A model generated the notes under the pieces. That model had not been told where the DNA came from. It worked only from the letters and a program-made list of their open reading frames with translations, and searched no databases. From an uncultured archaeon (GTDB lineage: Archaea; Asgardarchaeota; Lokiarchaeia; Sigyniarchaeales; SOKP01), in assembly GCA_964486045.1 (NCBI GenBank), contig CAZALK010000017.1, forward strand, positions 56,312 to 120,311: a stretch of 64,000 nt of DNA. The letters are read 5' to 3'. Below are positions 40,046 to 58,261 of the stretch, one piece after another. Positions within the stretch are counted from its first letter, which is position 1. The number at the start of each line of letters is the position of its first letter. Position numbers and translations under genes: made by a program.

Positions 40046-40066
40046 AAATATAGATTAAAATTATTA

Positions 40067-40678
40067 TTAATCTTGTAATTTAGAAAGAAGCGTCAGCTCC
40101 GCGATTTTGTGGAAAATGCTAGAAACATTTTCACCGGTCAATGCCGATGTCTCAAAAAGAGGGGCATTTAATTTTTGGGATAAATGTTCTGCCATAGGTA
40201 ATATAATCTTTTTCTCATCCGTCAAATCTATTTTATTTCCTATCAAAACTCGTGGAATTCCACTCAATCCATACTTTACAGAGGTGCTATACCAATTATT
40301 TACATTAGAAAATGAGCTAGAACGCGTTGTATCATAAACCAATATCATTCCATCTGCTCCGTTGAAGTATGGACGATGTAACATGTAAAATTGAGGCTGT
40401 CCAGCTATATCCCAAATCATCAAGGAGACTTCGGTTTCCTTACCCATGTCATTATTAACCATAACTTTCTCTTTAGTGATATTCACACCAACGGTAGGGA
40501 TATATTCAAATTGAAACTTTTCAGCACTGAAGTTCTTGAGTAAGGATGACTTCCCTACAGCGGGGTCTCCGATTACGATGATTGTTTTCTAGATTTGATA
40601 AATTCAAATATACTTGAAAATCATCTCGGTCCGCTCGTGAAATATTAGATCTTCATCAGAATTATTATTTTGGGTCAT
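40067..40678 (-). CDS. Rab-like small GTPase, split by a 30-nt BHB intron: join(40614..40678,40067..40583), 193 aa
   Basis: Spliced: MTQNNNSDEDLIFHERTEMIFK|IIVIGDPAVGKS...YIPTVG...WDIAGQ...NKID...TSAL. The track ORF 40067..40486 lacks G1/G2. Confidence 0.88.
40584..40613 (-). other. Putative bulge-helix-bulge (tRNA-type) mRNA intron, 30 nt
   Basis: GAUGAU-UUUC-AA^G-UAUAUUUGA-auuua-UCAAAUCUA-GAAA-AC^A-AUCAUC; contains in-frame TGA and TAG. Confidence 0.85.
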
Positions 40679-40753
40679 AAAGTATTGACACTTATTTGAT
40701 TATTTTCAATTTTTAATTAAATAAATAATGAAATTCCGATATAAAAATGTTAA

Positions 40754-41299
40754 TCATTCGTTTTTAAATTGAAATTGTTTTGAGATTTTAAATTTTGAAG
40801 TTTTACTTTCTTCGCGGGAGATGAAGTAAATTTTATTAAGGAGAAATTTGATTTCTTCCCATTTTGCTTGTAAATCAGTTATTATCTTTTGTAATTTTTT
40901 CTTTCCTTTGATTTGACCGGCACTAAGATGTGGTTTGAATCCATTTTTATACTGATTCACGTCATTACAATCAGGGACGATGTTAAGGATTTCTTCTTGA
41001 AGTTCTATAATTGAGTTATTCGGTATTGGATTTATCCAGAGGGTAAAATTTTGATGTGTGTGCTTAAAAAAACTAAAATTCTTAAGTAAAACCTCAAAGG
41101 GCTTAAATTTTTTACACGTTTCTGAAAAATATTTCCTAATATCTTCATATTGATTTCTAGGTCTAAATGGATATAACAACGTAATATGCGGCATCCATTT
41201 ATTTATGTTACGGTCAAAAACTTTACGAATTTCTTGAATTGATGCCCATTTTTCTTTTGGTGGGATTATTACAACCGCAGAAGAATAAACTTTACCCAT
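40754..41299 (-). CDS. 2H phosphoesterase (2'-5' RNA ligase / 2',3'-cyclic phosphodiesterase family)
   Basis: Two HxT/S motifs: PHITL and PHLSA. Confidence 0.85.
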   Translation of the reverse strand: MGKVYSSAVVIIPPKEKWASIQEIRKVFDRNINKWMPHITLLYPFRPRNQYEDIRKYFSETCKKFKPFEVLLKNFSFFKHTHQNFTLWINPIPNNSIIELQEEILNIVPDCNDVNQYKNGFKPHLSAGQIKGKKKLQKIITDLQAKWEEIKFLLNKIYFISREESKTSKFKISKQFQFKNE

Positions 41300-41396
41300 T
41301 GAATTTAAAATATTATTTCTTTAAGTGATTTACTTAACTTAATGAAAATTAATTAAAAGATTTTTATAAGAGAAAAATCTAATTTTAAATTGAGAA

Positions 41397-41903
41397 ATGA
41401 AAATAAAGCAACGGCATTTTATTCGTAAATCAGAATTAAAACCTCTTAAAGAGGAAATCTTAAAACGCTATGACCAAAAGTTTATCGACCAAATATTTCC
41501 TAAGAAAAGTAATGTAGAAGTTATACAAACAGAGTCGGGAGATACTTTGTATGCAGTGAATAATGAATTAAAAATTTGGAAATCAAAGGATGGATATATT
41601 CCTGTATTAACACTACTTCTAAACAATAGAGTTGATTTAAAAACTATCACAGTAGATTTTGGGGCAATTCGTCATGTTGCTAACGGAGCAGATGTTATGC
41701 GCCCAGGAATAACTAAAATTGATCCATCAATCATGAAGGGAGATATTGTAAAAATTGAAGAAGAAACACATCACAAGGCGTTAGCTGTAGGAAAAGCATT
41801 GTTTGATGCTACAGAAATGGAATCCAAAGATTCTGGAAAAGTTATTAAGAACATCCATACAATTCAAGATCCTATTTGGCAATTTGAAAAAAAATTTAAA
41901 TAA
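41397..41903 (+). CDS. PUA-domain RNA-binding protein (DUF1947/MCT-1-like)
   Basis: VDFGAIRHVANGADVMRPGI, ALAVG, G..IKNIH..D.IW. Confidence 0.88.
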   Translation: MKIKQRHFIRKSELKPLKEEILKRYDQKFIDQIFPKKSNVEVIQTESGDTLYAVNNELKIWKSKDGYIPVLTLLLNNRVDLKTITVDFGAIRHVANGADVMRPGITKIDPSIMKGDIVKIEEETHHKALAVGKALFDATEMESKDSGKVIKNIHTIQDPIWQFEKKFK

Positions 41904-42195
41904 ACTCTGCCTTTAAAATTGAATCCAATTTATTTTTATCTGATTCTATTAATTCGTCAACTGAATAACTTTCTGATTTATAAGAATCTTGTAAATAGCC
42001 ACAGTCTCTAAATTTACACAAGTTGAGTATAATTTTTAATCCATCTTCCAGAACAGATTTGTTTTCTTCCCCAATCGATGCTTTCATGAGTTTTATGATC
42101 GAAGTTGACTTCCATATTTCATTATCTTGAACATCTTCTTCTGAACAAACAAATTCTTCAAAAATTTCATTAAAAAACTCAATTTCTGCAGTCAT
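41896..42195 (-). CDS. Hypothetical protein
   Basis: 99-aa acidic ORF with ATG start. Confidence 0.6.
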   Translation of the reverse strand: MTAEIEFFNEIFEEFVCSEEDVQDNEIWKSTSIIKLMKASIGEENKSVLEDGLKIILNLCKFRDCGYLQDSYKSESYSVDELIESDKNKLDSILKAEFI

Positions 42196-42550
42196 ATTTA
42201 GCTTAAACCACCTTAATCCTTATATTTATGCAAAATCAATATCCCCAAATATTGACTAGTTAATATTTATGATAGGTTTAATTTTAAACAGATTTATTTT
42301 TACTATTTTACGTTATGCTATTACACACAAGTTAATTTTTAAGAAATTTGTTTTTCACATCGGTTTCAGACAATAATTAAAAAATTTATCTCCACGGATT
42401 CTTAACAGAAGCGTTAAACTCATATTAAAGGAACATTTATGGTTTTCCACTTGAAATTAAATTACATTAACCCTAAGTAATAAATTTATAGTAGATAGTT
42501 CTACGTATTTTACCTTGTTATTTATAAGTAAATTTGAAATATTAATTTCT

Positions 42551-42705
42551 TGTGTAGTGTAATGTTAAAGTCTTGTAATATTTGTGTGATATTGTGTTCC
42601 ATGCATATTACACGATGTTATAATTTGACTTTATTTTATAATACATAGAGCTATATAACGATGATATTATCGAGTGTACTATCACGAATATCTCGATGAC
42701 TCATC
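42551..42705 (+). ncRNA. Putative structured RNA (long hairpin plus second hairpin): ncRNA or 5' leader
   Basis: ~37-bp stem 42551-42647 with at least 6 G-U pairs; second stem 42660-42705; TTTATAAG at 42521-42528. Confidence 0.5.
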
Positions 42706-42729
42706 TTTAAAAACAATAAAAAAGAGGTT

Positions 42730-43041
42730 GTGTGGAAAAAAATGTCAATGTATAGATCGTATTTATTAAAAAATAACTTTTGGGCAAAAAAAGGGAATGA
42801 AAAAAATCCCAATGCAGAGAAGGTCTTTATTAAACATGATACTGAAGTAGGGGGGATATATGCCATAATTTTAAATGATAAAAAAGGATTAAAAATGATG
42901 GTAGAAGGAAAGGAATATTATTTTAATAACTTCGATAAAATAGATTCTTTTTTAACTCGTCTTCAGCAGAGAAAAGATAACTTCATGAAAATACTTAGAA
43001 GGAAAAATATTTCCCAGAAGTTAAGATTGTTAGATATATAA
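42730..43041 (+). CDS. Hypothetical basic protein (start may be ATG 42742)
   Basis: ORF with GAGG upstream; follows the structured RNA. Confidence 0.55.
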   Translation: MWKKMSMYRSYLLKNNFWAKKGNEKNPNAEKVFIKHDTEVGGIYAIILNDKKGLKMMVEGKEYYFNNFDKIDSFLTRLQQRKDNFMKILRRKNISQKLRLLDI

Positions 43042-43075
43042 GGAAATTTTATATATGCTATTATAAGAATTTTTG

Positions 43076-44683
43076 TTACTTATAAACAGGTTCGAGTCCT
43101 GATTGAAAGTGTCTAAGTCGTAATCCTGCTCCTCGAGATATTTTTACTTTTGGAATAATTTCTTTATTATTATATAACTCAGATATAGCAGCAACCACAT
43201 AATCAATATGGGAAATATTATAAGCATTCCAGGGTAATGCAAATCTCACTAGGTTCAATATTCCCTTCCTCTCCTCTGGTGTTTTATTATCCCATTCAAA
43301 AGCAAAGGGTCCTAATTCACATGCTCTAATCCCATAATGCTTTAGGAGTTCAATTGTAAACCCGGCGCCACCAAAATCGTCAATCTTCATGTCTATCCCC
43401 TCAAAAAACTTATCCATGTCAATGTAAACAGCATGACCGCCTGCGGGGAGAATTACTGGAACACCCTTCTCAGCTAGCTTTCTCGCAAATTCTCTTACTA
43501 GGAAAATTCTTTTTTTCAAAGCGTTTAAGTCGACAACCTCATAAAGGCTCGAAGCTAATGCCATAATATCTCTACCACTCATTCCCCCATAGGAATCATT
43601 TCCAAAAGTTAATATTTGCTTTTCTTTTAATGTAACACCGATGTCTCGTTTTATTGAAAAAAGTTTATGAAACCTACCTTGATCTCTGAAAAATAGCCCC
43701 CCTCCAATATTAGCTATACCTTTTTTAAAACTGATAGTGAATCCATCAACATAGGAAAACATCTCTTGAATGATACTAAGTATAGAATGATTTTGATAAT
43801 TTTCTTCAAATTCTTTAATGAAAAATGTATTCTCTGGAAATCTACACGCATCAAAAAATACCGGAATGTCATATTTCTTTGCTATATCAGACACACCTTT
43901 AATATTTGTCATTGAAACTGGTTGACCAGCTACGGTATTATTAGTAATCGTAATATAAATTAAAGGTACTGATTCTGCACCTTTTTCTTGTATAAATTCT
44001 TCTAAACTATTTAAATTCATATTACCTTTGAAAGGATTTCTTGTATTCATTTGATCAAAAGGAAATTCCTCCATAAGATTGTCGGAGAAAAAATTCACTG
44101 GATGAAGGTTGTTAGCTGCTATATTTGCTTCAGTAGTATCGAAATGACCATTGTTAAGGATATAATAATCAATTGAAGAATTCTTTTGTTTTAATATAGG
44201 GGCAATGGTTGAAAAAAGGAGATATTCTGCGCAGCGTCCTTGTGGCACTAGAAAAGCGTTCGGACGAATTAATTGAAATTTACCTCCATTTACAAAACCT
44301 CCTTCAATGGTAGTAAGATAGAGTTCTTTCATTAACTTATTTGTGTTTGTTTCTCCAGAAAGAACTAAATTAATTACCCTTTTTGGGTTGTCTCCCCTCT
44401 CAAAAATATCTCTAATTGCATCTAATAGAACATAATATCCCGTATTCCGACCATACGATTCATCTCCATGAAAAAGAGCGGCCCATTGAAAATCTGTCAT
44501 TGTTCCCGAACCGGAATCTGATAAAAAATCAAGAAATAATAATTCTGCAGGAAAAGAGAACAAGTTATACTCAGTTTTTTTTAATGCGTATTCACGCTGT
44601 TCTTTTGTCACCATTTTAATTTTTCTAACAACTATTGGTTTGTAACTTGGAATTGGAACCCCTAATTCATTCTGCGATTTCAA
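43076..44683 (-). CDS. Tryptophanase / tyrosine phenol-lyase family PLP beta-eliminating lyase
   Basis: DFLSDSG, GDESY, QGR.AE, HFDTT, GQPVS, SFKK, LRHF. Confidence 0.85.
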   Translation of the reverse strand: MKSQNELGVPIPSYKPIVVRKIKMVTKEQREYALKKTEYNLFSFPAELLFLDFLSDSGSGTMTDFQWAALFHGDESYGRNTGYYVLLDAIRDIFERGDNPKRVINLVLSGETNTNKLMKELYLTTIEGGFVNGGKFQLIRPNAFLVPQGRCAEYLLFSTIAPILKQKNSSIDYYILNNGHFDTTEANIAANNLHPVNFFSDNLMEEFPFDQMNTRNPFKGNMNLNSLEEFIQEKGAESVPLIYITITNNTVAGQPVSMTNIKGVSDIAKKYDIPVFFDACRFPENTFFIKEFEENYQNHSILSIIQEMFSYVDGFTISFKKGIANIGGGLFFRDQGRFHKLFSIKRDIGVTLKEKQILTFGNDSYGGMSGRDIMALASSLYEVVDLNALKKRIFLVREFARKLAEKGVPVILPAGGHAVYIDMDKFFEGIDMKIDDFGGAGFTIELLKHYGIRACELGPFAFEWDNKTPEERKGILNLVRFALPWNAYNISHIDYVVAAISELYNNKEIIPKVKISRGAGLRLRHFQSGLEPVYK

Positions 44684-44805
44684 ATAGCTTCAACAATGAT
44701 GAGTTTATCAAAATAACTAGTATTTTACTTAAATTCTTCAAGATTTAATAATTTATATCAAACCATTCTTCTAAATAAAAAGAAATCTTTTACTAAACTG
44801 AAATA

Positions 44806-45042
44806 TTATTTTTTTAGGTTTTCAGCCCATTTCTTCCAATTTTTCCATGCATCCTTATGCTTAAGCCATTTTAAAAGTTCCGTAGAAAGTTCTCGTGCTG
44901 CATTATTAACTTCTTCTTCTGTAGCATTTCGAATTTTTTTAAGAAGAACTTCTTCTTCGAATTCAATCAATTCTTCGTCAGAAGCAAGTAAGCCGTTTTT
45001 CAGAAGCCTTCCTTTTTCAAAATTTATTTGAATTGATACCAT
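44806..45042 (-). CDS. Hypothetical protein
   Basis: 78-aa ORF with ATG start. Confidence 0.5.
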   Translation of the reverse strand: MVSIQINFEKGRLLKNGLLASDEELIEFEEEVLLKKIRNATEEEVNNAARELSTELLKWLKHKDAWKNWKKWAENLKK

Positions 45043-45159
45043 ATGAAAAAATATAAAGATTTATTAAAAAATATTGCTCACATTTTTAAAATTTCAAAAA
45101 GGATTTTATTTGTGATTAACAAATATAGAAAACAATTTTGCTTCCACATTATTTTCATT

Positions 45160-45510
45160 TCATCTTTTCTTTTTTTGATATTTTCTCCCAGATAATTTTA
45201 AAACAGAATCTTCTCGATATCCTTCTTTACCATTATAACTCTCGGGAGCATAGTGAGAAAGGGGATTAATTTTCTTTGATTCATGCAGAATTTTTTGAAG
45301 TTTCTCAGGAAAGTCATTCACAATTTCTTGGCAAACAGCTTCAGAATCAATAGTTATTCGATATTTTTTAAAACTATTAATTAAATTATTCAAATCTATC
45401 ATTAATAATTCAATTTGCTCATTATGACGTCGTTGTCTAAATTCATCAAACTGACGTCTATTCTTTGCAAATTTAAAACCAATATCCTGATTGTATTCTT
45501 TCTTTACCAC
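45160..45510 (-). CDS. Hypothetical protein
   Basis: 116-aa ORF. Confidence 0.5.
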   Translation of the reverse strand: MVKKEYNQDIGFKFAKNRRQFDEFRQRRHNEQIELLMIDLNNLINSFKKYRITIDSEAVCQEIVNDFPEKLQKILHESKKINPLSHYAPESYNGKEGYREDSVLKLSGRKYQKKKR

Positions 45511-45878
45511 TTTTTAGTTTCACTCTTTTTTTTCGTTTTGGAGAAATATCTCTACAAAGTTGAAGAGAGTTTATAAAATGGATTTAAAAAATTAACAACT
45601 CCACAAAATTAAGTATTAATCTTTATAGAATCTTCATTTCTGAGAAGTTTTAACTTATCTCTAGTAAAAGAGCAAAACAAGGGAATAGATATTCCTTATA
45701 TAGTACCTATTGGTGTTTGTTCCATTTTCCAAAAACAAGCCTTTACTTTTCGAGTATCTATAATATAAACAAACACCTCCAATCTTTTTTAATCAATTAA
45801 TGATTTTGAAGTTATAAAGTTTGTCTCATTGCACCCTGAGTGAAGATTAAAAAATATGATAATTTAATTGAAAAAAAA

Positions 45879-46541
45879 TTAAATTAGAAATCCACCCCAT
45901 TCTACGACGGTAAAACCTGAACGAATGTGTGTCTTTATTAATGGCGTTTCTATTTCAACTGCATTCTGGTAAGGAGAAAATGTTAGCATAACCCTGATTA
46001 TTGTATCTGGTTTAGGATCTATAATTAATCCCATATTTAAGTCTAGATATTCTTTTGATAATAATTTTATTTCATAATAATTAGCTATTGGGAGAAAATC
46101 TAACCAAAAAACCTTAAAATCTTTACTTTCTTTTTCATTTAATCCAAGTTCTTTTAAGGTGTTATTCATCCATAATTCAAGATGTTCATATTCAACACAC
46201 CAACCTTCCTCAGGTGTTTTTAAAAAGTTTAATCGCGCTTCATAAAATAAGTAATCATAGCTATTTTCAATATTGCCTCCTGGTTCTACTGTTACATCCC
46301 ATCCATTATTATATTCTGGCTCACTTATTGTAATTTCACCATTAATTGAAAGAGAAACTTTAATCTTCAATGTTTCTTGTGGATATAAGTAAATAGCAGG
46401 TTTACGGGCTACAGCATCTTCAGGATAACCAGTAAATAAAGAAAAAATAGCGATTATTCCTATGGATGAAATAATAATAATTGCTATTATCGAAAATATT
46501 GCTATAATGATTTTAGATTTTGAATACCTACTGTCACTCAT
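45879..46541 (-). CDS. Membrane-anchored protein of the uncharacterised KP.IYLYP...EWGG family
   Basis: N-terminal TM; KPAIYLYP, YLFYE, GFTVVEWGG. Confidence 0.7.
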   Translation of the reverse strand: MSDSRYSKSKIIIAIFSIIAIIIISSIGIIAIFSLFTGYPEDAVARKPAIYLYPQETLKIKVSLSINGEITISEPEYNNGWDVTVEPGGNIENSYDYLFYEARLNFLKTPEEGWCVEYEHLELWMNNTLKELGLNEKESKDFKVFWLDFLPIANYYEIKLLSKEYLDLNMGLIIDPKPDTIIRVMLTFSPYQNAVEIETPLIKTHIRSGFTVVEWGGFLI

Positions 46542-46703
46542 TTTGTTTATTTTCTTAATTTATTAGTATTGGACTAAATTATAATACACCACTTTCCTAT
46601 TTAAAACACATGGTCATTACCTTTATTATGGTTCCGATTTAAATGGATTCTATGAAACTGTATTTGTACTAACCCTTGACGATAACGGAGACGACGCTTT
46701 TGT

Positions 46704-47159
46704 TTAATTATACGCATTCCGTTTGGGTGTGCGTGGTCTGACACTTATTATCTCTCTTAAAAGTTTTTCTAAAAGACTGTTCTTTAGTTCCTTATCCATA
46801 CTCCATAAATTATTAAGCTCATCTGAATCATTTTTCAAATCAAAAATATCACCAATATCTTCGTAGCCGTCATAAAGAGTCAATCGGTGTTGTTCGGTAA
46901 TTAATGTTCGAAGTCTAAATACTGTATCCTGAGCAATTTCTTCATCATGTTCTATTAATATTTGTCGCCTAACTTTATTTTTTGGGACTGTTAATATGCT
47001 TGATATATCATATCCTTGTAAGTTTTCAGGTATTAATTTTTTTCTAACATTTAATAAGTTTAAAATTGTCTTTGGTAAATCAACTGTATAATAGGTTTTG
47101 TTTTTTTGTCTTATATCTTTAATGAATTCTTTTATAATGATAGTATTTTTTATAGTCAA
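46704..47159 (-). CDS. Hypothetical protein
   Basis: 151-aa ORF. Confidence 0.5.
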   Translation of the reverse strand: MTIKNTIIIKEFIKDIRQKNKTYYTVDLPKTILNLLNVRKKLIPENLQGYDISSILTVPKNKVRRQILIEHDEEIAQDTVFRLRTLITEQHRLTLYDGYEDIGDIFDLKNDSDELNNLWSMDKELKNSLLEKLLREIISVRPRTPKRNAYN

Positions 47160-47255
47160 TGATTATTAATATTTATACAATAATTTTCTCTACTTAAAAT
47201 AGAAAGGAAAATTTTCTGGAGTTTTCTTGAGTAAAAGATTTGAAACATAAATTAT

Positions 47256-49628: not shown

Positions 49629-49672
49629 TCTGCAACTAATTCATTGTTTGAAAGACGATTTTAAAGTTGTTA

Positions 49673-49746
49673 GATTGTGTACACAAACAGTACATATATT
49701 TATATATGATAATTCATATTTTGATTATGTACACAATCAGTACATA
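49673..49746. promoter_or_regulatory. Two TGTAC-N7-GTACA palindromic operators 50 bp apart flanking a TATA-like tract
   Basis: gattgtgtacacaaacagtacata (49673-49696) versus gattatgtacacaatcagtacata (49723-49746). Confidence 0.7.
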
Positions 49747-49767
49747 GAGAAATTTGAGGTTGAAAAA

Positions 49768-49941
49768 ATGGCTCAAATGTTAATGAAAAAGCCAGAAAAA
49801 GAAAACATCAACATAACCAATAGTGTTATTATCAAAAGATCTAATAGAGGACTAAAAATTTTATTAAAAGAAGCAATTGAAAGCTCTAGATTTGAAATGA
49901 TTTTTAATTATAGATGTGGAAGGTGTAAAATTAATGTCTGA
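49768..49941 (+). CDS. Small hypothetical protein with C-terminal CxxC
   Basis: ATG at 49768 lies just after the operators; stop overlaps the start of the next gene. Confidence 0.35.
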   Translation: MAQMLMKKPEKENINITNSVIIKRSNRGLKILLKEAIESSRFEMIFNYRCGRCKINV

Positions 49942-51205
49942 CAAACCGAAATTAAGGCTAGAGGAAGCCGAAGTATTAAGAGAATTAGAATATTTGATAG
50001 GGAAGCCGATTCCTCGAATAGAAGACATAAATTCAACCTTTGGAGTTAAAATAGATGGCGATCATATAATCCGTTTAAGGTTGAATGGTAAGGTATTTCG
50101 AAAACGGGGTATGAAAAAATTAAAAACACTTCCAGAATCGATTGGGAACCTTACATCACTTAGATCGCTTTCTTTACGTGATAATAATCTAATAACTATC
50201 CCTGACTCGATTGGGAATCTGACGTCGCTTGAATATATTAATTTTAGGTCTAATAGATTAGAGACAATTCCAGAATCAATAGGAAATTTAAAATTTCTTA
50301 AATATCTTGTTTTAAGGAATAATCCACTAAAGAGTATCCCTGATTCAATCGGTAATTTATCATTACTTATGGAATTATATTTGGCGGGAATAAAGTTACC
50401 AGTACTTCCTAAGTGGATTGGAAACCTTTCCTCATTAAAATATCTAAATCTAGAAAATAATCAACTTACTACTCTTCCAGTATCAATAGGAAATCTTTCA
50501 TTACTTAATATCTTACTGTTGGGTGAAAATCGATTAAAAATGCTTCCAGAAACAATTGGAAATTTAAAATCTCTTAGGGTGCTTGTATTAAGTGGCAACG
50601 ATATCACAAGTATTCCTGGATCTTTCAAAAATTTAACATCACTAAAATCTCTCTTACTGCAGCGAAACAAATTAAAGAAGCTCCCGTATTCAATAATTCG
50701 CCTTAAGTCGCTTCATTCGCTCCAAACCCTGCGGTGGGACGATCCAAAAGCACTAATAACAGATAAAACTTCAGTTGAAGGATCTCCTATAAATCTTAGA
50801 TCTAGCATTATGGGTGAATTAAAGAAAGAAGTTATTCCTGCTCACAGAAATGGAACATTTTTACAAAAACTCGATGAAGATACTTTAAAGACACGAGAAA
50901 TTAAAAGATTCGAGCGTCTTGACCAATTAAAAGAAGTAGAAATAGAATTGAAAAAGACTCAACAAGTCAAATTTTTGGTAAGTATACCTGAATTAGATAA
51001 TATTAAATACTTTGCACAAATTGCTCACCAATCGCAATCTGAATTTATACGTTCAGCAATAAGAGACAAAATCAGACTATTACAAGAGCAATCAAAGGAC
51101 AAGCCATTAGAAGAACATCAGGAAGTCCTTGAAAACAGGCTAAGTTTAAAAGAATTAAAAATGATTCGAAATCTATTAGAGAGATTTGAAAAAAAAGAAA
51201 AGTGA
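49916..51205 (+). CDS. Leucine-rich repeat protein (9 x 23 aa) with C-terminal ribbon-helix-helix domain
   Basis: LP.SIGNL.SL repeats; QQVKFLVSIPELDNIKYFAQIAHQSQSEFIRSAIRDKI; start probably ATG 49934. Confidence 0.8.
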   Translation: MEGVKLMSDKPKLRLEEAEVLRELEYLIGKPIPRIEDINSTFGVKIDGDHIIRLRLNGKVFRKRGMKKLKTLPESIGNLTSLRSLSLRDNNLITIPDSIGNLTSLEYINFRSNRLETIPESIGNLKFLKYLVLRNNPLKSIPDSIGNLSLLMELYLAGIKLPVLPKWIGNLSSLKYLNLENNQLTTLPVSIGNLSLLNILLLGENRLKMLPETIGNLKSLRVLVLSGNDITSIPGSFKNLTSLKSLLLQRNKLKKLPYSIIRLKSLHSLQTLRWDDPKALITDKTSVEGSPINLRSSIMGELKKEVIPAHRNGTFLQKLDEDTLKTREIKRFERLDQLKEVEIELKKTQQVKFLVSIPELDNIKYFAQIAHQSQSEFIRSAIRDKIRLLQEQSKDKPLEEHQEVLENRLSLKELKMIRNLLERFEKKEK

Positions 51206-51341
51206 TTTTATTCATTTTTAATTAATAATCGGCTTTTTCTATTTGATAAGATATAAATTGAAAAATTCTTATTAGGAGTTGTAAGAATAGACCAATTTTC
51301 CTTAGATTTAGTGGTTAAAGTTTTACTAAAGAATTTAAAAG

Positions 51342-52379
51342 GTGTACATAATAGAAAGCATTCCTGTCGACGACAAATCGTATTCCGCGCTCATTACTCT
51401 ACTTAGGCTTAAGACAGGTTTAAACTTTGAGTATTACAACAAACAATTTATTGAGAAAAGAATAAAATCTAGAATGATTCGAGTTAAAGTTTATACTCTC
51501 GATGACTATTATAGATATATATCATCAACACAGGAAGAAGTCAAAAAATTTGTTGATGGATTTACAGTAAATTATACTTTCTTTTTTCGAGATTATGATG
51601 TATTTGAAACACTTCAAGATTTATTCATTCATGGATTAAGAGTAAGTAGAAAAGATATAAAGAGTGATATAAGACCAGATACAGCTAAGTTAAAAAATTT
51701 TCGTACAAAATCCAATGCTGTGAAAAATGCAATCAAGATTAGTAAATATAACTATCGCCCAGAGCGGTTTTATGTTGATATATTTATTTTTCTAAATCAA
51801 CTTTCATACTTTCAAAAAATGAAGAAACCTAGAAGTGCGCAAAATTGTATTAATATATGGTCTTGCCCATGTGCTACTGGAGAAGAACCTTATTCGATTG
51901 CAATGATATTAGATAATTTAGAAACTCAAGTTCCACGTTTCCCTAAGAATAGGATAGTTGCATCTGATATAGCTCATGAAGCAATTGCAAAAGCAAAAAT
52001 AGGGAATTATACAAATGATTCGATGAAAGAAATCTCAGATTATTACGAAACCAAGTATTTTTCGAGACAAAAAACCCATTTTGGTCATACTAATCTAATC
52101 AAAGAAGAGATCAAGCAAAAGATTGAATTTGTTGAAGAGGATGTTACTCAAGGTCATAGTCTGCCATACTATTATGATATAATTTTCTGTAGATATCTTC
52201 TTATTTATTTTAACAGAGAAAATAGGCATAGATTTTTAAAAATCCTTGAAAACCGTTTAGTGGAAAATGGAATCTTGATCTTGGGAAAAACTGAAACTTT
52301 ATTTGATTCCTGGGGTTCGTTAAAACTAATCGATTCGAGAAATCGTATTTATATTAAGTCTCAATCTAAACTTTATTAA
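51342..52379 (+). CDS. cheR: CheR-type protein-glutamate O-methyltransferase (orphan)
   Basis: TVNYTFFFRD, WSCPCATGEEPYSIAM, DIIFCRYLLIYF, LILGKTE. Confidence 0.85.
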   Translation: MYIIESIPVDDKSYSALITLLRLKTGLNFEYYNKQFIEKRIKSRMIRVKVYTLDDYYRYISSTQEEVKKFVDGFTVNYTFFFRDYDVFETLQDLFIHGLRVSRKDIKSDIRPDTAKLKNFRTKSNAVKNAIKISKYNYRPERFYVDIFIFLNQLSYFQKMKKPRSAQNCINIWSCPCATGEEPYSIAMILDNLETQVPRFPKNRIVASDIAHEAIAKAKIGNYTNDSMKEISDYYETKYFSRQKTHFGHTNLIKEEIKQKIEFVEEDVTQGHSLPYYYDIIFCRYLLIYFNRENRHRFLKILENRLVENGILILGKTETLFDSWGSLKLIDSRNRIYIKSQSKLY

Positions 52380-52397
52380 AATTAAATTCAATCTTGT

Positions 52398-53165
52398 TCA
52401 GTAAATAAAGGGAATAAAGGCTTTACGATCCTGTGGATAATTCACAAAAGTTTCTTTATACCATTTGTGATTAGAACGTGCTCTAGGCGCTAAATTCGCA
52501 AAAGTCCATAGCGCAAAAATCAGTCCAGGAAAACTTCAAGTCATTATAGCCCATCCCGTCCATTCAGTAATCTCACCAAAATAGCTAGGAGAACTTATAT
52601 AGCGAAACATACCCCCATAAGGTATATTATATCCAGTTTCACCGGGTTTTCGTAAATTACGAATTATATAATCTGACTGGAGATTTATAACAAAACCAGA
52701 AAAGAAAATAATAACCCCTAAGATAAATAAGGGGTTGAAAAGCCAGCTTACCGTATAACTGGGAGAAAAAGTATATATCCATCTAGCTTGAATATAAGCA
52801 TTAATACCATTAAACGTAATTCCCATCAATACAATAATAATAGGTATTACTTGTTTTCCACGAATTAAAAAAGAAAAGACAAATGTTCGTTGACAATAAT
52901 GCACCATCCATATTATCATTAATACTAAGGGGACTAATTCAGCCTTTCGATTTCCTACAAGGAAATAGAACAAATAAATAATAACCGTTGGTATTTCCAT
53001 TAAGAACCAACCTAGCTTGTTGTTTATTGTTGCACCCCACTTTTTATTTAAATATTTTCCGTAGCCAGCAAGAATAAATAGTAAAATAATGAAGAAGAAG
53101 ATTGACGAAAATCCGAAACTTAGTAATATAAGATTAAATATAAAGAACTCATTCAAACGCTTCAC
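52398..53165 (-). pseudogene. Steroid 5-alpha-reductase-like (SRD5A/DUF1295) gene with an in-frame TGA at 52536-52538
   Basis: GWFLMEIP, HYCQR, YFGEITEWTG; frame continues past the stop: SFPGLIFALWTFANLAPRARSNHKWYKETFVNYPQDRKAFIPFIY*. Confidence 0.75.
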
Positions 53166-53166
53166 T

Positions 53167-54582
53167 TTATTTATTATGTTTTGGCCTTAGTAATACAGCT
53201 CGTTTTTCTAAGATCAATGAGATTACTTTTTTATCTTTCTGATACCATTTAACGCTTAATACCCATAAAATAATTCCTGGTAGAGAGAAAATTCCGATGA
53301 TTAAAGCAACGAGTTGGTAATTATTTCCAGAGGCTTGAATAAAAAAACCTGTAATTAAAGGCCCAGATCCCCAACCAATACTTTCTAATAATCGATTTAA
53401 AGAAACAACCTGTCCTTGAGCTTCTGGTAAATTTATTTGTTGCAAAACTGGGGGTTGGTTAATTTCGTATAATGAAGAAATTGATGAGGAAACAGACTCA
53501 ATTGTTCCTATCAACCAAATTATGGGAAATGAAAAAAAAAGAGCAAGGTTTTTTCCTTCTTCTACAGTAAAATGGGGTAGAGGTACATAAAAAATCAATA
53601 CAAAGGTTGACGTACCCGCAACTAACGAGATTATAATAAAATAAATTCTTCTAATGTCTTTATTCTTAGATAGCTTGTCTGATAATTTAGCAAGAATTAG
53701 TTTCATAATTAATCCAATAGTTAATCCAAAGAATGCTAAAAATGCACCCGTGACGAATGGAGAAAAGTTGTGAGGTTCTGTTTGTAAATAAGGCAAGAAT
53801 AAAATAGTTAAGCTACCCATGAATACACTTGTAAATATTCCCTCAACTAAAGCTACGATATTAGTTTTGCTAAATATCGTTTTCCTCATCATTTTTATAT
53901 CTAATTGAAAATCATATGATACTTTATCATCCTTGAGAACCTCTGAAAGTTCTTTGCGTAAAATACCTCTCTTTGGCTCTTTAATTGTTAAAAACATTAA
54001 AAAACCAATAAATATCATTCCAATTCCAACAAAAATAAAAAAAACTCGCCATACTCCTATCAATACTAAAAATCCGGTTAATAAGAATCCAGTTAAACTA
54101 AAAGCAGATCGAATAATATTCCTTATACCAAAAAAACGAGATCTGGAGTTCAATGGGACTAAATCATTTGAAAGAGATGCTATTGATGAATAATTGCCAC
54201 CAGCAGAGATTCCAATAATAAAAGTAAAAGTGTAAAAATACAACCATGAATTTATTCCTAATCCAATAACAGTAAAGCCTAACAGTATCATACAAATCCC
54301 CCGAATAATTGAGATCATCAATAAAATTTTTGTCCGGCTGAATTTATCAATAAGTCGTCCAAATAAAAGACCAGCGAGAGAATTTGCCCAAAACATTGAA
54401 GTAATCATAAATCCCATTTCAAGGGCATGGTATGGCTCACTAGGCCAAAACAAAGAAGATAAGGGTACAACTAATATAATAATCCCACTAAACGCAAGTG
54501 AGAAAAATCCTGCTAATGAGTATAAAGCCCAAAAGGATTTGAGGAGATAGACATTAGAATATTCTGAATCTGTTTCTATCAT
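53167..54582 (-). CDS. MFS transporter
   Basis: FGRLIDKFSR motif, ~12 TM segments, WR..F. Confidence 0.88.
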   Translation of the reverse strand: MIETDSEYSNVYLLKSFWALYSLAGFFSLAFSGIIILVVPLSSLFWPSEPYHALEMGFMITSMFWANSLAGLLFGRLIDKFSRTKILLMISIIRGICMILLGFTVIGLGINSWLYFYTFTFIIGISAGGNYSSIASLSNDLVPLNSRSRFFGIRNIIRSAFSLTGFLLTGFLVLIGVWRVFFIFVGIGMIFIGFLMFLTIKEPKRGILRKELSEVLKDDKVSYDFQLDIKMMRKTIFSKTNIVALVEGIFTSVFMGSLTILFLPYLQTEPHNFSPFVTGAFLAFFGLTIGLIMKLILAKLSDKLSKNKDIRRIYFIIISLVAGTSTFVLIFYVPLPHFTVEEGKNLALFFSFPIIWLIGTIESVSSSISSLYEINQPPVLQQINLPEAQGQVVSLNRLLESIGWGSGPLITGFFIQASGNNYQLVALIIGIFSLPGIILWVLSVKWYQKDKKVISLILEKRAVLLRPKHNK

Positions 54583-54795
54583 TATAGTTTAAATTTTACC
54601 TAATTAGATAGTTAAATTCATTTTGAGTTTTTAATTTGTTCATTCTCTTTGTCTTTAAAATGAAGGTATGAGATATTCAGCAAGCCATACTAGTTATTAA
54701 TTTAACTTTAAAACATAATAATCATTTTAAGTTATAATTTCTCGACTAATCGTCCTTTTATGAAAAATTTAAAAGAATTATGATAATGCTAAATT

Positions 54796-55482
54796 ATGAT
54801 TAATAAATTTATTCAGAGAAATCTACCGTACATTTTGAGTATTATTGGGTGTTTACAATTTGGTGTACTAACAAGTATTGCAATGATTTTTTACATGGGA
54901 GGAACCTATATCGATTCTTCTCCTTTAGGTTATATATTCTGGATGAATTATTTTAGTGACCTTGGCCGAACTGTGGCTCATTCTGGAATTCCAAATACAA
55001 TATCTTTTGTACTTTTTACCATAGCTTTGAGTTTATGGGGTATAACTCAAATTCCGTTTTACATTTCTTTCCCAACCTTTTTCAAAACTTATCCAAATTT
55101 AAGGAAGATTAGTATAAGTGGTTCTATTTTGGGAATTATTTCAGGAATATCCTTTGTAGGTATAGCTTTTACTCCTTCAGATATTACCAGCAGTTTCCAT
55201 GATCTTTTTGTGGTAATTTGTTTTTTTTTCGTTTATTTTAGTATTATATTATACTCCTATGTAATATTTAAAAATGAGAATTATCCGAATTTTTATGGTA
55301 TTATTCTTACCATCTCAGCCTTTATTTTAAACGTGTATTTTCTAATTCTTTTTGTTACATCCAATAGTCGAACTCCGGAAGGATTGCTAATTTCCGTGGT
55401 TGGGCAAAAGCTTATGATTTACACACTTCTTGTAAGTAATATTATTCAAGGATATGGGGCTTTGAAACAAAATTCTTCTTAA
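54796..55482 (+). CDS. DUF998-like membrane protein
   Basis: NYFSDLG, FH, QK; multiple TM segments. Confidence 0.65.
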   Translation: MINKFIQRNLPYILSIIGCLQFGVLTSIAMIFYMGGTYIDSSPLGYIFWMNYFSDLGRTVAHSGIPNTISFVLFTIALSLWGITQIPFYISFPTFFKTYPNLRKISISGSILGIISGISFVGIAFTPSDITSSFHDLFVVICFFFVYFSIILYSYVIFKNENYPNFYGIILTISAFILNVYFLILFVTSNSRTPEGLLISVVGQKLMIYTLLVSNIIQGYGALKQNSS

Positions 55483-55557
55483 ATTTATACTACAATAATT
55501 TTTAAAGCTTTTTCCCTTTTCTAAAATATTACGTAAATAGGAAAAAAACTTACAACG

Positions 55558-56286
55558 ATGAATAGAACCAATGAATTAAAAAATAGACTTGAATCTCATT
55601 CTCTTAAGGGTATAATTTTTGATTTTGACGGAACTCTACTTGATATAAGAGAAATACTCGAGAAATCGATTGAAGAAGTTCTGGTGGATCAAAATATTAA
55701 TATCGATATGGAAATAACGATTCAGGAGATTGGAGCTCTATTAGAGACAATTCAAGGATTCCCCTTGCCAAAAATACTACTTGAGTCTTATGAAATATTC
55801 AAGCATATAACTAGCTTGAACAATTTAAGTTATTTTAAACAACTAAGAATAGCTGTGAAGATTTTTACTAAATATCTTGTATATTCCAAAGCTGCCTCTT
55901 TCTTACCGGGAGTTAAACAACTGTTAAAAAAATTAGCGAAATCTTTTGATCTATTTATTGTGTCTCATAATAAAACAGAAACTATTATGGAACACCTAGA
56001 AAATGAAGATATTGATAAGATTTTCAAAGGTGTTTTTGGTAGTGATAGAATCCCTGTCCAAAAACCAGATCCTCTAGCGCTCCAACCTCCCTTAGAAACA
56101 TATGAAAAGCGAGTGAGGGATGATTTTTTAATGATAGGGGATATGCCATCCGACATTATCGCTGGGCGTGAAGCGGGGCTATGGACTATAGGTGTTGCAA
56201 GCGGAGTAAGTAAAAAAGAGATTTTACTTGAGTATCACCCAGACTTATTAATTAATTCATTAGATGAGTTATTAGAAATGTTATAA
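55558..56286 (+). CDS. HAD-family phosphatase
   Basis: FDFDGTL, KPDP, IGDMPSDI.AG. Confidence 0.9.
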   Translation: MNRTNELKNRLESHSLKGIIFDFDGTLLDIREILEKSIEEVLVDQNINIDMEITIQEIGALLETIQGFPLPKILLESYEIFKHITSLNNLSYFKQLRIAVKIFTKYLVYSKAASFLPGVKQLLKKLAKSFDLFIVSHNKTETIMEHLENEDIDKIFKGVFGSDRIPVQKPDPLALQPPLETYEKRVRDDFLMIGDMPSDIIAGREAGLWTIGVASGVSKKEILLEYHPDLLINSLDELLEML

Positions 56287-56546
56287 ATGCTTTTTTTGAA
56301 TTTAATTATAAAAATAATAAAATATGAAGAAAAGTTTAAATAAAAACTGTCATTTGAATCGTTCTTAACATAATATAGTACTCTGTTTTATTTGTTATCT
56401 GATTGTTAAGACGAAAACACACGCTTTTCAAATTTTTCAGTGTATTTCAATAACCAATAATTTTTTATATCAATATGTATTTAAGTAAAGATATAGTTCA
56501 GCTGAATAAATTGAGTTTTATTAAGATTTAATGCTTTTTTTAATAA

Positions 56547-58261
56547 TTGAAGGTGAAAATTATCGAGCTCGAAAAACCAGGCAAAAAAGGATTTGAAATC
56601 GCTGAGGAAATGGAGCGTAGAAAGTCCACCGAGGAGAAACTCCAAAAAGGGTTGAAATACGAGAAACGACATCAAGATTGGACCTATAAACTTATGAAAT
56701 TCAATCCTATCGATCCATTGAATGATTTATATCGTTTTATCGTTAAGCGATTAGACTTAAAGCAAATAGAAGGCCGGCTTCAATGGTGGAGTGCCTATTA
56801 CTCCTGGCTCAGTTAGAGCAGAGTGGGCAAATCTACATCAGATGGGCGGCACGTATTTTCTGGAACTTTAAGATAGAATACCCTAAAGGAAATATGTTTC
56901 CAGAATGGGGTCCAGGAATCCTTGTAGGCTCACATGAGAGCCATTTGGACCCGTTCTTCTACGGATCGGCTTGTCAAAGACGTATCCGCTACATGAGTAA
57001 GCTTGATAATTTTAAGACACCAATTGTAAAAACTCTCTTTAATAATCTCGGAGCTTTCAAAGTTGATCGTGAAAATCCCGAACGAGGGTGGCAAAAAGCA
57101 AAAGAAATATTGTTAGGCGGCGAATGTATAGGAATATTTCCAGAGGGTACACGTTCTAAGGATGGAACCATTGGAGAATTTAAGACAGGAGCGGTAAGAC
57201 TGGCAGTTGAGATGCAGGTTCCTATTATTCCCATGGCAGTTATCGGTTCGAGGAATGCATTACCTAAAGGTAATTTAGTAATGAAACCGACCCAAGTAAA
57301 AGTACGTGTTGGTGATCCTATTTCTTATTCTGATTATGATATCAATTCTGTTTCTTATAATGATATTAAACGGTTAACTGATGAATTAAGGAATAATGTC
57401 TGGGAATTACGTGAGGGAGTTTATGGTAAAGAAGAGGATAAAGAACTTTCAATCGGCTCACCTGAAGAATTTCCAAAAGAATCCAAATTTAATATCATGC
57501 GTTATTTGAAAGATCAAGCTATAGGTGCTGTAACACTCATTGATGATATCTGGTATGGGCTTTTAAGAAGTCTAGAAGAGTTTGGAGCACGCGAAATATT
57601 ACAAAAACCTATGCAGGCGTTATCAGGGGAAGTGGTTTGTGGTTGGTCAGATCTCATGATGCCATATAAAGTTATAAATTTTAGAAAATATATCCCTCAA
57701 GAAGGCGCAGCTCTTATATGTCCAAGTCATAATTCTGAATGGGACGTACTTTTACTGGCAGCAAGCATAATCCATCACCCACCAAGACGCGTTGCGTACC
57801 AAATGGCAAAGCAATCACTTTTTAAGATTCCTCTCGTAAACGCTTGGGTAAGAAATCATCATGCTTTTCCATTAAAACGAGGGATGCATGATGTAGGTTC
57901 ATTTAATTACGCGAGGGAACTTCTTGAGCAAGGGAAGATAGTTATTACTTATCCAGAGGGTACTACTAATACAGGGAATGGTCAATTATTAGAAGGACAT
58001 ACTGGCCCAATGCGCTTGGCAATCCAGGCACAGGTGCCTATTATTCCTCTAGGCATAACGGGAAGCGAGAACATATACGCCAAACACGCAAAAATGCTCA
58101 CTTTTTATAAAGGGTGTGTCTTAAAAGCTGGGGAACCGTTTTTGGAGCATCAACAATATTGGGGCAAACGAGTGCCTGATTATGATGAACTTAAGAGATT
58201 GACAGTTAATATGATGAGTCGGATAAGAAAATTATTATTGTATGATACACCGGATGCCTAA
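56547..58261 (+). CDS. Tandem two-domain PlsC-type lysophospholipid acyltransferase, probably join(56547..56798,56831..58261), ~560 aa
   Basis: SHESHLD/FPEGTRS and SHNSEWD/YPEGT; track ORFs 56547..56816 and 56783..58261 join after removal of a BHB-bounded insert. Confidence 0.75.
56799..56830 (+). other. Putative BHB/BHL-type mRNA intron, 32 nt (register uncertain)
   Basis: GCCU/GGGC central helix, AUU and AAA bulges, ACUC/GAGU and GCUC/GAGC inner stems, outer UGGUG.AG/CU.CAUCA. Confidence 0.6.

What the first reader, a model, noticed from the sequence alone, without database searches (positions are those of the whole stretch)
40067..58261. Possible widespread tRNA-endonuclease-dependent mRNA intron system in Asgard archaea
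Two unrelated genes within ~18 kb carry short (30 and ~32 nt), sequence-unrelated hairpin inserts near their 5' ends, each with exon-intron junctions forming BHB geometry. Annotation pipelines would call these truncated or split genes, so they would be missed. Inference: if this density is typical, the genome could hold many such introns, which bears on the origin of eukaryotic mRNA splicing and non-conventional (IRE1/RtcB) splicing. I cannot confirm novelty against the literature.
Basis: inference. Interest (0 to 1): 0.9.

Follow-up and report, generated by a model that had tools for sequence, protein, structure and literature searches.

The report
tRNA-type mini-introns in Asgard protein genes
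Two protein genes in this Asgard (Promethearchaeota) genome are each broken by a roughly 30-base hairpin with the exact shape and cut sites of an archaeal tRNA intron, and comparison with relatives points to dozens more, even in RNA polymerase and ribosomal protein genes, so these cells very probably splice many of their mRNAs.

Summary
Observation confirmed. A Ras-like GTPase gene (minus strand) carries a 30-nt insert at 40584-40613. A tandem PlsC acyltransferase gene carries a 32-nt insert at 56799-56830.

19 and 22 same-genus orthologues lack these inserts. [quoted passage not shown] Excision restores the orthologue protein residue for residue.

A second strain's DNA holds both inserts. All 7 strain differences in the GTPase exons are synonymous.

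The PlsC insert recurs at the same site in one other species, with a different interior and a compensatory change in the 4-bp helix.

Comparing 1.14 Mb of a congener with this genome gave 11 such inserts, about 16 per Mb. That is roughly 70 per genome and a lower bound. Hosts include RNA polymerase A', uL11 and adenylate kinase. Across the genus, uL11 has three intron sites.

Two EndA paralogues and RtcB are present.

Limits:
- No RNA data could be found, so splicing is inferred, not shown.
- Motif-only genome scans show no enrichment, but they are underpowered.

The scan has noted the same kind of intron before on other archaeal DNA. In the papers I could search, only cbf5 mRNA splicing is confirmed.

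The parts
40614..40678 (-). Gene 1 (Ras/Rab-like small GTPase), exon 1: ATG at 40678. It encodes MTQNNNSDEDLIFHERTEMIFK, with the last Lys codon completed by exon 2.
   Evidence: Translation. 19 orthologues read ...(L/I)VFHERTEMIFK|IIVIGDPAVGK without interruption. Strain SNP 40637 is synonymous in this frame.
40584..40613 (-). Gene 1 intron, 30 nt, GUAUAUUUGAAUUUAUCAAAUCUAGAAAAC, with in-frame UGA and UAG. It forms a hairpin AUUUGA/UCAAAU.
   Evidence: Exact 30-nt gap against 19 orthologues. BHB at shift 0: h1 6/6, H 4/4, h2 5/6. No other copy in the genome.
40577..40625 (-). Gene 1 BHB motif. h1 is 40625-40620 with 40582-40577. H is 40619-40616 (UUUC) with 40589-40586 (GAAA). The 5' bulge is 40615-40613 (AA^G). 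The 3' bulge is 40585-40583 (AC^A).
   Evidence: Fold of 40555-40635, minimum free energy -19.3 kcal/mol, z = -2.85. The register was checked by script.
40067..40583 (-). Gene 1 exon 2: IIVIGDPAVGKSS... through the stop codon at 40069-40067.
   Evidence: Pfam Ras PF00071, E = 4e-43. Six strain SNPs, all synonymous. dN 0.12 against a congener, with dS saturated.
56553..56798 (+). Gene 2 (tandem PlsC-type acyltransferase), exon 1: GTG start, 82 codons, ending ...QWWSAY.
   Evidence: Orthologue ORFs of 556-577 aa contain this N-terminal part in one frame with the rest. pN 0.11 against pS 0.82 relative to G013.
56799..56830 (+). Gene 2 intron, 32 nt, UACUCCUGGCUCAGUUAGAGCAGAGUGGGCAA. It shifts the frame.
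   Evidence: Exact 32-nt gap against 22 orthologues. The same site and length occur in G005, with a different interior.
56784..56840 (+). Gene 2 BHB motif. h1 is 56784-56791 with 56833-56840. There is a U56792.U56832 mismatch. H is 56793-56796 (GCCU) with 56825-56828 (GGGC). The 5' bulge is 56797-56799 (AU^U). The 3' bulge is 56829-56831 (AA^A). h2 is 56800-56803 with 56821-56824.
   Evidence: Script. G005 has H GCUU/GAGC, so the third pair changes from C-G to U-A.
56831..58261 (+). Gene 2 exon 2: IYIRWAARIFWNF... with two acyltransferase domains, through the stop codon.
   Evidence: Pfam PF01553, E = 1e-53, two stretches. The spliced product is 558 aa, matching orthologue length. dN/dS about 0.05-0.1.

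Best explanation
These are archaeal bulge-helix-bulge (tRNA-type) introns inside protein-coding mRNAs.

Proposed mechanism:
1. The gene is transcribed with the roughly 30-nt insert.
2. Exon and intron bases fold into two 3-nt bulges on opposite strands, separated by a 4-bp helix.
3. The splicing endonuclease EndA cuts after the second base of each bulge. This genome has two paralogous subunits, as expected for the broad-specificity (alpha-beta)2 type.
4. RtcB joins the exons. The small intron is released, probably as a circle.
5. Only the spliced mRNA encodes the full protein. Unspliced mRNA meets a stop codon or a frameshift within a few codons.

The two introns in the window belong to a complement of at least 13 found here in this genome, extrapolated to roughly 70. 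They are about 28-46 nt long and mostly 30-32 nt. They are unrelated in sequence and patchily distributed among congeners, which implies frequent gain and/or precise loss.

Shown here:
- The inserts exist in DNA.
- The BHB geometry is present.
- The cut sites are exact.
- The structure is conserved.
- The interrupted genes are under selection.
- The enzymes are encoded.

Inferred: the cleavage and ligation themselves, and which enzymes perform them.
For: 1. Exact boundaries. In 14 frame-breaking inserts of 28-46 nt, excision at the BHB cut sites reproduces the orthologue peptide. Of these, 11 are in this genome and 3 in congener G002. Only excision positions that give the best-matching peptide were allowed (1-6 per site). 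Under that rule the 4-bp helix is fully paired in 11 of 14 cases in the correct handedness, against 1 of 14 in the mirror-handed control (details).

2. Gene 1. 19 orthologues are uninterrupted. A second strain carries the intron, and its 7 exon differences are all synonymous in the spliced frame, with none in the intron.

3. Gene 2. The same 32-nt site is occupied in G005, with a C-G to U-A compensatory change in the central helix and a different hairpin interior. Exon 1, upstream of the frameshift, is conserved as coding.

4. Essential single-copy hosts:
   - uL11 (28 nt, frameshifting)
   - adenylate kinase (29 nt)
   - RNA polymerase A' (30 nt, inside GHFGH|IEL)
   - RNase HII (30 nt, shared with G002)

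5. uL11 across 30 congeners has three intron sites of 37, 35 and 28 nt, none a multiple of 3. One species carries all three. At site 3, in 9 species, 91.9% of cells are paired against 25-48% when the partner is slid, and 2 pairs show compensatory changes.

6. Machinery. There are two EndA paralogues of about 200 aa with both Pfam domains, and one is closest to the crenarchaeal catalytic chains. RtcB is present. Asgard archaea are reported to have (alpha-beta)2 EndA with the L1 loop (PMC5829648).

7. The cut between the 2nd and 3rd bulge residue is the rule documented for cbf5 mRNA introns (PMC2738675).
Against: - There is no RNA evidence: no spliced junction reads and no circular intron.
- Motif-only genome scans show no excess of correct-handed BHBs, or of frame-restoring BHBs, over the mirror control.
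- Several introns have a weak outer helix (h1), and two have only 3 of 4 central pairs, so they are relaxed substrates whose cleavage is assumed.
- The genome is a metagenome-assembled genome with 7.8% estimated contamination.
- The G000 branch of the PlsC tree is longer than its neighbours (0.21 against a median of 0.08).
- How splicing would precede translation in a cell thought to couple transcription and translation is not addressed by any data here.
Confidence: 0.85

Rival explanations
1. Translational bypassing. The ribosome hops over the insert, as in phage T4 gene 60 or the mitochondrial 'byp' elements of Magnusiomyces, so the mRNA is never cut.
For: The size range (about 28-46 nt), the hairpin, and the stop codon soon after the interruption all resemble bypass elements (established knowledge of gene 60). 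The scattered, sequence-unrelated inserts resemble byps. No RNA data exclude it.
Against: Bypassing needs matching take-off and landing codons. In gene 1 the codon before the resume point is ACA, not AAG/AAA; landing on AAA would add a Thr that all 19 orthologues lack. In gene 2 the three bases before 56831 are CAA against the take-off codon UAU, and no stop follows the take-off codon for 6 codons. Bypassing does not predict two 3-nt bulges 4 bp apart in one handedness with cut sites that fit to the base. It also does not predict compensatory changes in the 4-bp helix.
Confidence: 0.04
2. The interrupted genes are pseudogenes or recently disrupted genes. The inserts are inert small insertions that happen to be hairpins.
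For: Each insert introduces stops or a frameshift. Gene 1's intron is unique to this species among the 20 sampled. Asgard genomes hold many GTPase paralogues, so losing one would be tolerable (91 candidates).
Against: All 7 strain differences in gene 1 are synonymous. dN is far below dS in both exons. Hosts include single-copy uL11, adenylate kinase, RNA polymerase A' and RNase HII. The same frameshifting inserts persist across 4-9 species with the structure kept. BHB cut sites coincide with insert ends in 11 of 14 cases, against 1 of 14 in the control.
Confidence: 0.03
3. The introns are real and spliced but are a modest, lineage-restricted set (a few tens at most in one family), not a general Asgard mRNA intron system.
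For: Density is uneven: 6 in the first 363 kb compared, 0 in the next 382 kb, and 5 in the last 392 kb. The uL11 and RNase HII introns were not seen in the sister families sampled, including three closed genomes. The congener G002 has about a third as many as G000. No motif-level enrichment was found.
Against: 13 introns are already in hand from about 13% of the genome, and shared introns are not counted. Earlier notes of this scan report the same kind of intron in other Asgard and non-Asgard archaea (unchecked here apart from RNase HII).
Confidence: 0.25

Closest known systems
BHB intron in the cbf5 (pseudouridine synthase) pre-mRNA of Crenarchaeota (Watanabe 2002; Yoshinari 2006; Yokobori 2009, PMC2738675)
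   Same: An intron in a protein-coding mRNA with a BHB at the exon-intron junctions. The cut is predicted between the 2nd and 3rd bulge residue. Processing is by a hetero-oligomeric EndA. Gain and loss among relatives is patchy.
   Different: cbf5 is one gene family with one site. PMC2738675 states that no other gene has been confirmed. Here at least 12 unrelated genes in one genome are affected, with up to three sites in one gene (uL11). The lineage is Asgard, and intron length is tightly clustered near 30 nt. I did not examine cbf5 itself in this genome.
Archaeal tRNA and rRNA BHB introns, including the heavily interrupted tRNA genes of Asgard archaea (bioRxiv 10.64898/2026.10.13.758758; PMC5829648)
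   Same: The motif, the presumed enzymes (EndA with the L1 loop, and RtcB), the small size, and the many apparently independent gains. This genome's tRNA genes are also intron-rich: ARAGORN calls introns in 20 of its 31 tRNA predictions.
   Different: The hosts here are open reading frames, so excision must be exact to the base to keep the frame. The introns carry stops or frameshifts. That preprint mentions protein-coding genes only as neighbours used for synteny.
Unconventional HAC1/XBP1 mRNA splicing (IRE1 nuclease plus Trl1 or RtcB ligase) and mRNA cleavage by eukaryotic TSEN
   Same: Protein-only, spliceosome-independent cutting at stem-loops of an mRNA, followed by tRNA-ligase joining. 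RtcB is the shared ligase in metazoa (established knowledge; PMC10485636 for TSEN).
   Different: IRE1 is unrelated to EndA and recognises twin 7-nt loops, not a BHB. That system acts on one regulated substrate, not on a genome-wide set. No homology claim is made here.
Programmed translational bypass elements (T4 gene 60; Magnusiomyces mitochondrial byps)
   Same: Short hairpin-containing inserts in coding sequence that annotation reads as breaks.
   Different: They need matched take-off and landing codons and no RNA cutting. That requirement is not met at either window intron.

Membership tests
Archaeal BHB (tRNA-type) intron | Two 3-nt bulges on opposite strands, each 3' of a shared 4-bp helix, flanked by an outer and an inner helix | tested here: met
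   Gene 1 is fully canonical. Gene 2 has the 4-bp helix, both bulges and the inner helix, plus one U.U mismatch beside the 3' bulge. The helix is fully paired in 11 of 14 introns, against 1 of 14 for the mirror geometry.
Archaeal BHB (tRNA-type) intron | Cleavage after the 2nd base of each bulge yields the functional junction | tested here: met
   The junctions predicted this way equal the orthologue sequences: FK|IIVIG (19 orthologues) and SAY|IYI (22 orthologues). The rule itself comes from PMC2738675.
Archaeal BHB (tRNA-type) intron | Structure maintained in evolution (covariation) | tested here: met
   Gene 2: C-G to U-A in the central helix between G000 and G005, with the inner-helix pairs replaced. 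uL11 site 3: 91.9% paired against 25-48% when slid, with 2 compensatory pairs in 9 species. Gene 1's intron is in one species only, so covariation cannot be assessed there.
Archaeal BHB (tRNA-type) intron | Splicing endonuclease able to take non-tRNA or relaxed substrates, and an RtcB ligase, encoded in the genome | tested here: met
   Two EndA paralogues (C7:36262-36864 and C10:136871-137470, each with PF02778 and PF01974) and RtcB at C1:512216-513523. The heterotetramer architecture and the L1 loop were not verified.
Archaeal BHB (tRNA-type) intron | Intron actually removed from the RNA (junction reads, circular intron, in vitro cleavage) | not testable with these tools
   No RNA run was listed for this DNA. 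Only DNA contigs could be laid.
cbf5-type pre-mRNA intron (same gene, same site) | Located in cbf5 at the catalytic Asp codon | not tested
   The hosts here are other genes. cbf5 of this genome was not examined.
Translational bypass element | Matching take-off and landing codons flanking the gap, with a stop right after take-off | tested here: not met
   Gene 1: the codon before the resume point is ACA, against take-off AAG. Gene 2: CAA against UAU, and there is no adjacent stop.

The most novel reading that the evidence does not exclude
In this family of Promethearchaeia, endonuclease-and-ligase splicing of mRNA would be a routine step of gene expression. It would affect on the order of 70-100 genes per genome, including RNA polymerase, ribosomal proteins and replication proteins.

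The introns would also be actively gained. The same site in PlsC is occupied in two non-sister species by introns with unrelated interiors. uL11 has three sites in 45 codons. This would point to a site-directed insertion process, for example reversal of the EndA/RtcB reaction followed by reverse transcription and recombination. That would be an intron-gain mechanism in the closest prokaryotic relatives of eukaryotes.
Probability: 0.35. Interest if true: 0.95.

Novelty: new variant of a known kind. Interest (0 to 1): 0.85.

Why it matters
- **Scale.** If the inserts are spliced, protein-coding introns in archaea are not a one-gene curiosity (cbf5). In at least one Asgard lineage they would be a genome-wide feature that reaches core informational genes.
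- **Annotation.** Current pipelines would truncate or split these genes. In this window they would call a 139-aa GTPase from an internal GTG, and a separate 89-aa ORF plus a 492-aa acyltransferase. Gene content, pseudogene counts and protein phylogenies of Asgard archaea would therefore be biased.
- **Intron turnover.** The system offers a way to study intron gain and loss through sites occupied in parallel and precise losses.
- **Splicing and translation.** It raises the question of how a cell without a nucleus keeps ribosomes off unspliced mRNA, a question central to ideas about why the nucleus arose.
- **Testability.** The predictions can be tested directly with RNA from sediments or enrichments that hold these organisms.

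Tried and rejected
- **RNA evidence.** Two run searches listed no RNA holder, so nothing can be said about expression.
- **Motif-only census, first version.** I scanned both strands of the 5.18-Mb genome for BHBs with intron lengths of 12-120 nt. Correct-handed versus mirror-handed counts were 84,528 vs 84,949 at loose criteria, and 230 vs 231 at gene-1 quality. Adding an ORF-rescue criterion gave no excess either.
- **Motif-only census, tuned version.** A second version matched the real introns (length 24-50 nt, 4/4 central helix, strong inner helix). It also gave no excess: 133 vs 122 at the most favourable setting, where about 24 true hits were expected. The test is underpowered. It is not evidence of absence.
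- **34-nt register in gene 2.** The UGCC/GGCA register pairs well but leaves the frame broken, so I rejected it in favour of the 32-nt register fixed by the orthologues.
- **Candidate inserts rejected as introns:**
  - C15:133912 (40 nt) is an indel in a 5' leader; the gene has its own ATG.
  - C15:61776 (42 nt) is an ordinary in-frame protein indel.
  - C5:42902 (110 nt) is a decayed duplicate of the gene's 3' end; the unspliced reading ends like the orthologue.
  - C9:194762 and C12:50714 are gene ends.
- **Left open.** G002 C2:178196 is a 30-nt in-frame insert without a stop and with a 4/4 helix.
- **Mobile repeat family.** Each intron is unique in the genome, and the introns do not resemble one another.
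- **Known RNAs in the window.** ARAGORN found no tRNA and Rfam found no family at gathering score.
- **Literature.** Six full-text searches found no report of BHB introns in Asgard protein-coding genes. The library is incomplete, so this is not proof of novelty.

Full report
**What is in the window**

The window is G000:C17:56312-120311. G000 is a 5.18-Mb, 45-contig, roughly 30%-GC metagenome-assembled genome. Its relatives carry the names Promethearchaeota or Promethearchaeia, the Lokiarchaeia-type Asgard archaea. The DNA comes from marine sediment.

Gene 1, minus strand:
- The translation reads MTQNNNSDEDLIFHERTEMIFKYI*IYQI*KTIIVIGDPAVGKSS....
- This is a Ras-family GTPase (Pfam PF00071, E = 4e-43).
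- Its beta-1 strand is broken by ten codons that hold TGA and TAG.

Gene 2, plus strand:
- An 89-codon ORF (56547-56816) overlaps, in another frame, a 492-aa protein with two acyltransferase domains (56783-58261).

**The inserts are defined independently of any structure**

Gene 1:
- Nineteen same-genus orthologues of the GTPase are uninterrupted and read ...TEMIFK IIVIGDPAVGK.
- A nucleotide alignment shows one clean 30-nt gap against this genome.
- That gap places the insert at 40584-40613.

Gene 2:
- Twenty-two orthologues of the acyltransferase are single ORFs of 556-577 aa reading ...QWWAAY IYIKWA.
- This genome and one other species (G005) carry a 32-nt insert at the same place.
- Only removal of 56799-56830 gives ...QWWSAY IYIRWA, so the boundaries cannot slide.
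- The spliced products are 193 aa and 558 aa.

**The structure fits to the base**

Gene 1 folds as follows:
- outer helix GAUGAU/AUCAUC
- central helix UUUC/GAAA
- bulges AAG and ACA on opposite strands
- inner hairpin

Cutting after the second bulge base is the rule documented for cbf5 mRNA introns (PMC2738675). It removes exactly the 30 nt and joins UUC AA|A AUC, which encodes F-K-I.

Gene 2 pairs in two neighbouring registers:
- UGCC/GGCA would excise 34 nt and break the frame.
- GCCU/GGGC has bulges AU^U and AA^A and inner helix ACUC/GAGU. It excises exactly the 32 nt fixed by the orthologues, at the cost of one U.U mismatch beside the 3' bulge.

In G005 the central helix is GCUU/GAGC. Its third pair is U-A instead of C-G, a change on both sides. 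The inner hairpin has a wholly different sequence but still pairs, and the length is again 32 nt.

**Chance**

BHB-like motifs are abundant in this AT-rich genome:
- 84,528 correct-handed against 84,949 mirror-handed at loose criteria.
- 230 against 231 at the quality of gene 1.

So "BHB geometry" alone means little. What matters is that position and length were fixed beforehand by the orthologues. The chance of a gene-1-quality motif at one given position and length is about 2e-7.

I also ran a fairer test over all frame-breaking inserts found (see "How many are there?"):
- I allowed only the excision positions that give the best-matching peptide (1-6 per site).
- The 4-bp helix is fully paired in 11 of 14 cases in the correct handedness.
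- It is fully paired in 1 of 14 cases in the mirror control.

**The interrupted genes are alive**

- A 27,954-nt contig from a second sample spans 39500-58500 with 58 base differences and no gaps. Both inserts are therefore in the DNA of a second strain, and no insert-free variant was seen.
- The seven differences that fall in gene 1 exons are all synonymous in the spliced frame, including one in exon 1. None falls in the intron.
- Against congeners, dN is 0.10-0.15 while dS is saturated.
- In exon 1 of gene 2, which lies upstream of the frameshift, 11% of non-synonymous sites differ against 82% of synonymous sites.

**How many are there?**

I fetched 1.138 Mb of the congener G002 and aligned 903 ORF pairs at the DNA level. 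I then listed indels that lie inside an uninterrupted ORF of the other genome.

This genome has 11 frame-breaking or stop-carrying inserts of 28-46 nt whose BHB-defined excision restores the orthologue peptide (Pfam and copy number; table):

| Host gene | Position in G000 | Length | Site in protein |
|---|---|---|---|
| Ras-like GTPase (window gene 1) | C17:96895-96924 | 30 | FK\|IIVIG |
| PlsC acyltransferase (window gene 2) | C17:113110-113141 | 32 | SAY\|IYI |
| AIR-synthase-related protein | C5:195271 | 30 | every pair formed |
| Adenylate kinase | C5:233440 | 29 | GPPGAG\|KGT |
| Ribosomal protein uL11 | C5:238662 | 28 | |
| SCP2 protein | C26:11207 | 46 | |
| RNA polymerase subunit A' | C13:44101 | 30 | GHFGH\|IEL |
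| Prismane/CO-dehydrogenase-family protein | C22:24748 | 30 | |
| Same gene, second site | C22:24549 | 32 | |
| Thiolase | C3:186175 | 30 | |
| AAA ATPase | C3:187694 | 32 | DEIDKAD\|IE |

G002 has its own inserts in DnaG/Toprim, thioredoxin, one further gene, and uL11 at a different site.

Density:
- The orthologue matches cover 678,629 bases of this genome.
- That gives 16 per Mb, or about 70 per genome if 85% is coding. The coding fraction is my assumption. The Poisson range is 36-128.

This is a lower bound, because introns shared by both genomes leave no gap. Two examples:
- RNase HII carries a 30-nt BHB intron at DEAGR|GPV in both genomes but not in three closed genomes of a sister family.
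- A protein-level comparison with one of those genomes found another intron at C1:759271-759300. Together with uL11, that is two introns in 94 kb of aligned coding sequence.

Two introns in 18 kb is therefore denser than typical. The genome nevertheless holds many.

**uL11 as a test case**

Across 30 congeners, the first 45 or so codons of this single-copy, essential gene hold three intron sites:

| Site | Length | Species carrying it |
|---|---|---|
| 1 | 37 nt | 4 |
| 2 | 35 nt | 5 |
| 3 | 28 nt | 9 |

- One species has all three and one has two.
- None of the lengths is a multiple of three.
- Each site has a BHB whose cut sites match the intron-free sequences.
- For site 3, 91.9% of cells pair, against 25-48% when the partner is slid. 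The central helix pairs in every species, and two inner pairs show compensatory changes.
- Site 3 also occurs in other genera of the family, but not in the other families sampled.

**Dynamics**

- The introns are unrelated in sequence and unique in the genome, so they are not a repeat family.
- On a PlsC tree, the two intron carriers are not sisters in any of 200 bootstrap trees.
- The uL11 carriers are scattered on the same tree.
- The data therefore require either repeated precise loss or repeated gain at the same sites. They do not decide between the two.
- Many sites lie in highly conserved motifs. However, my detection needs conserved flanks, so this may be ascertainment bias.

**Machinery**

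- Two EndA paralogues of about 200 aa each carry both endonuclease domains. One is closest to the catalytic chains of crenarchaeal heterotetramers.
- RtcB is present.
- An (alpha-beta)2 EndA with the specificity-broadening L1 loop has been reported for Asgard archaea (PMC5829648).
- I did not verify that architecture here.

**Rivals**

- Pseudogenes are excluded for practical purposes by the selection data and by the essential hosts.
- Translational bypassing would explain hairpin inserts without RNA cutting. But the take-off and landing codons do not match at either window site. Bypassing also predicts neither the handed BHB geometry nor the compensatory changes.
- What remains open is scale and spread, and above all direct proof of splicing. 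No RNA run could be found.

**Known and new**

- In the papers I could search, cbf5 of Crenarchaeota is the only archaeal protein gene with confirmed mRNA splicing (PMC2738675).
- A 2026 preprint on Asgard tRNA introns does not treat coding genes.
- Six searches found no report of this phenomenon.
- Earlier notes of this scan describe the same kind of intron in other archaea, including Lokiarchaeia-type genomes. Of those I re-tested only the RNase HII case.
- The mechanism is a known kind. Its scale, its hosts and its lineage are the new variant.

Noticed in passing
L088-L116 (uL11 loci of 29 congeners); G000 C5:238662-238689: The uL11 gene has three separate BHB intron sites (37, 35 and 28 nt) within its first 45 or so codons across the genus. 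One species (G005) carries all three.
   Followed up: yes
L016 (G018:C24, GTPase orthologue): The orthologue of gene 1 in another species lacks the window's intron. It has its own 30-nt BHB intron after PTVGV (H GCGU/GCGU, inner helix 6/6, in-frame TAG).
   Followed up: yes
G000 C13:44101-44130: The single-copy RNA polymerase A' gene carries a 30-nt intron with TAA inside the conserved GHFGH|IEL motif.
   Followed up: partly
G000 intron sites generally: Many introns sit in catalytic or nucleotide-binding motifs: P-loops, Walker B, the thiolase Cys region, RNase HII DEAGR|GP, and just before thioredoxin WCGPC. The bulges are A-rich; AA^A is the 3' bulge in 6 of 11. This may be ascertainment bias, because detection needs conserved flanks.
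   Followed up: no
whole genome G000: ARAGORN finds only 31 tRNA genes and calls introns in 20 of them. Several calls are odd (tRNA-Stop, tRNA-Pyl). This fits heavily interrupted tRNA genes that standard finders mis-read.
   Followed up: no
window 56547-56570: The ATG start used by orthologues of gene 2 is ATC in this genome. A GTG three codons upstream (56553), also present in many orthologues, is the likely start.
   Followed up: partly
G000 C5:42792-43011 (minus strand), 3' end of the DnaG-like gene: A decayed duplicate of the last 15 or so codons follows the stop codon. It looked like a 110-nt insert in the alignment.
   Followed up: yes
G002:C2:178196 (L083): A 30-nt in-frame insert without a stop codon has a fully paired 4-bp helix and inner hairpin. 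It may be an intron that would go unnoticed as a protein indel.
   Followed up: no
window 42521-42705: A first-reader note (e1-5505647) reports a long G-U-rich hairpin here. Rfam finds no family in the window.
   Followed up: no
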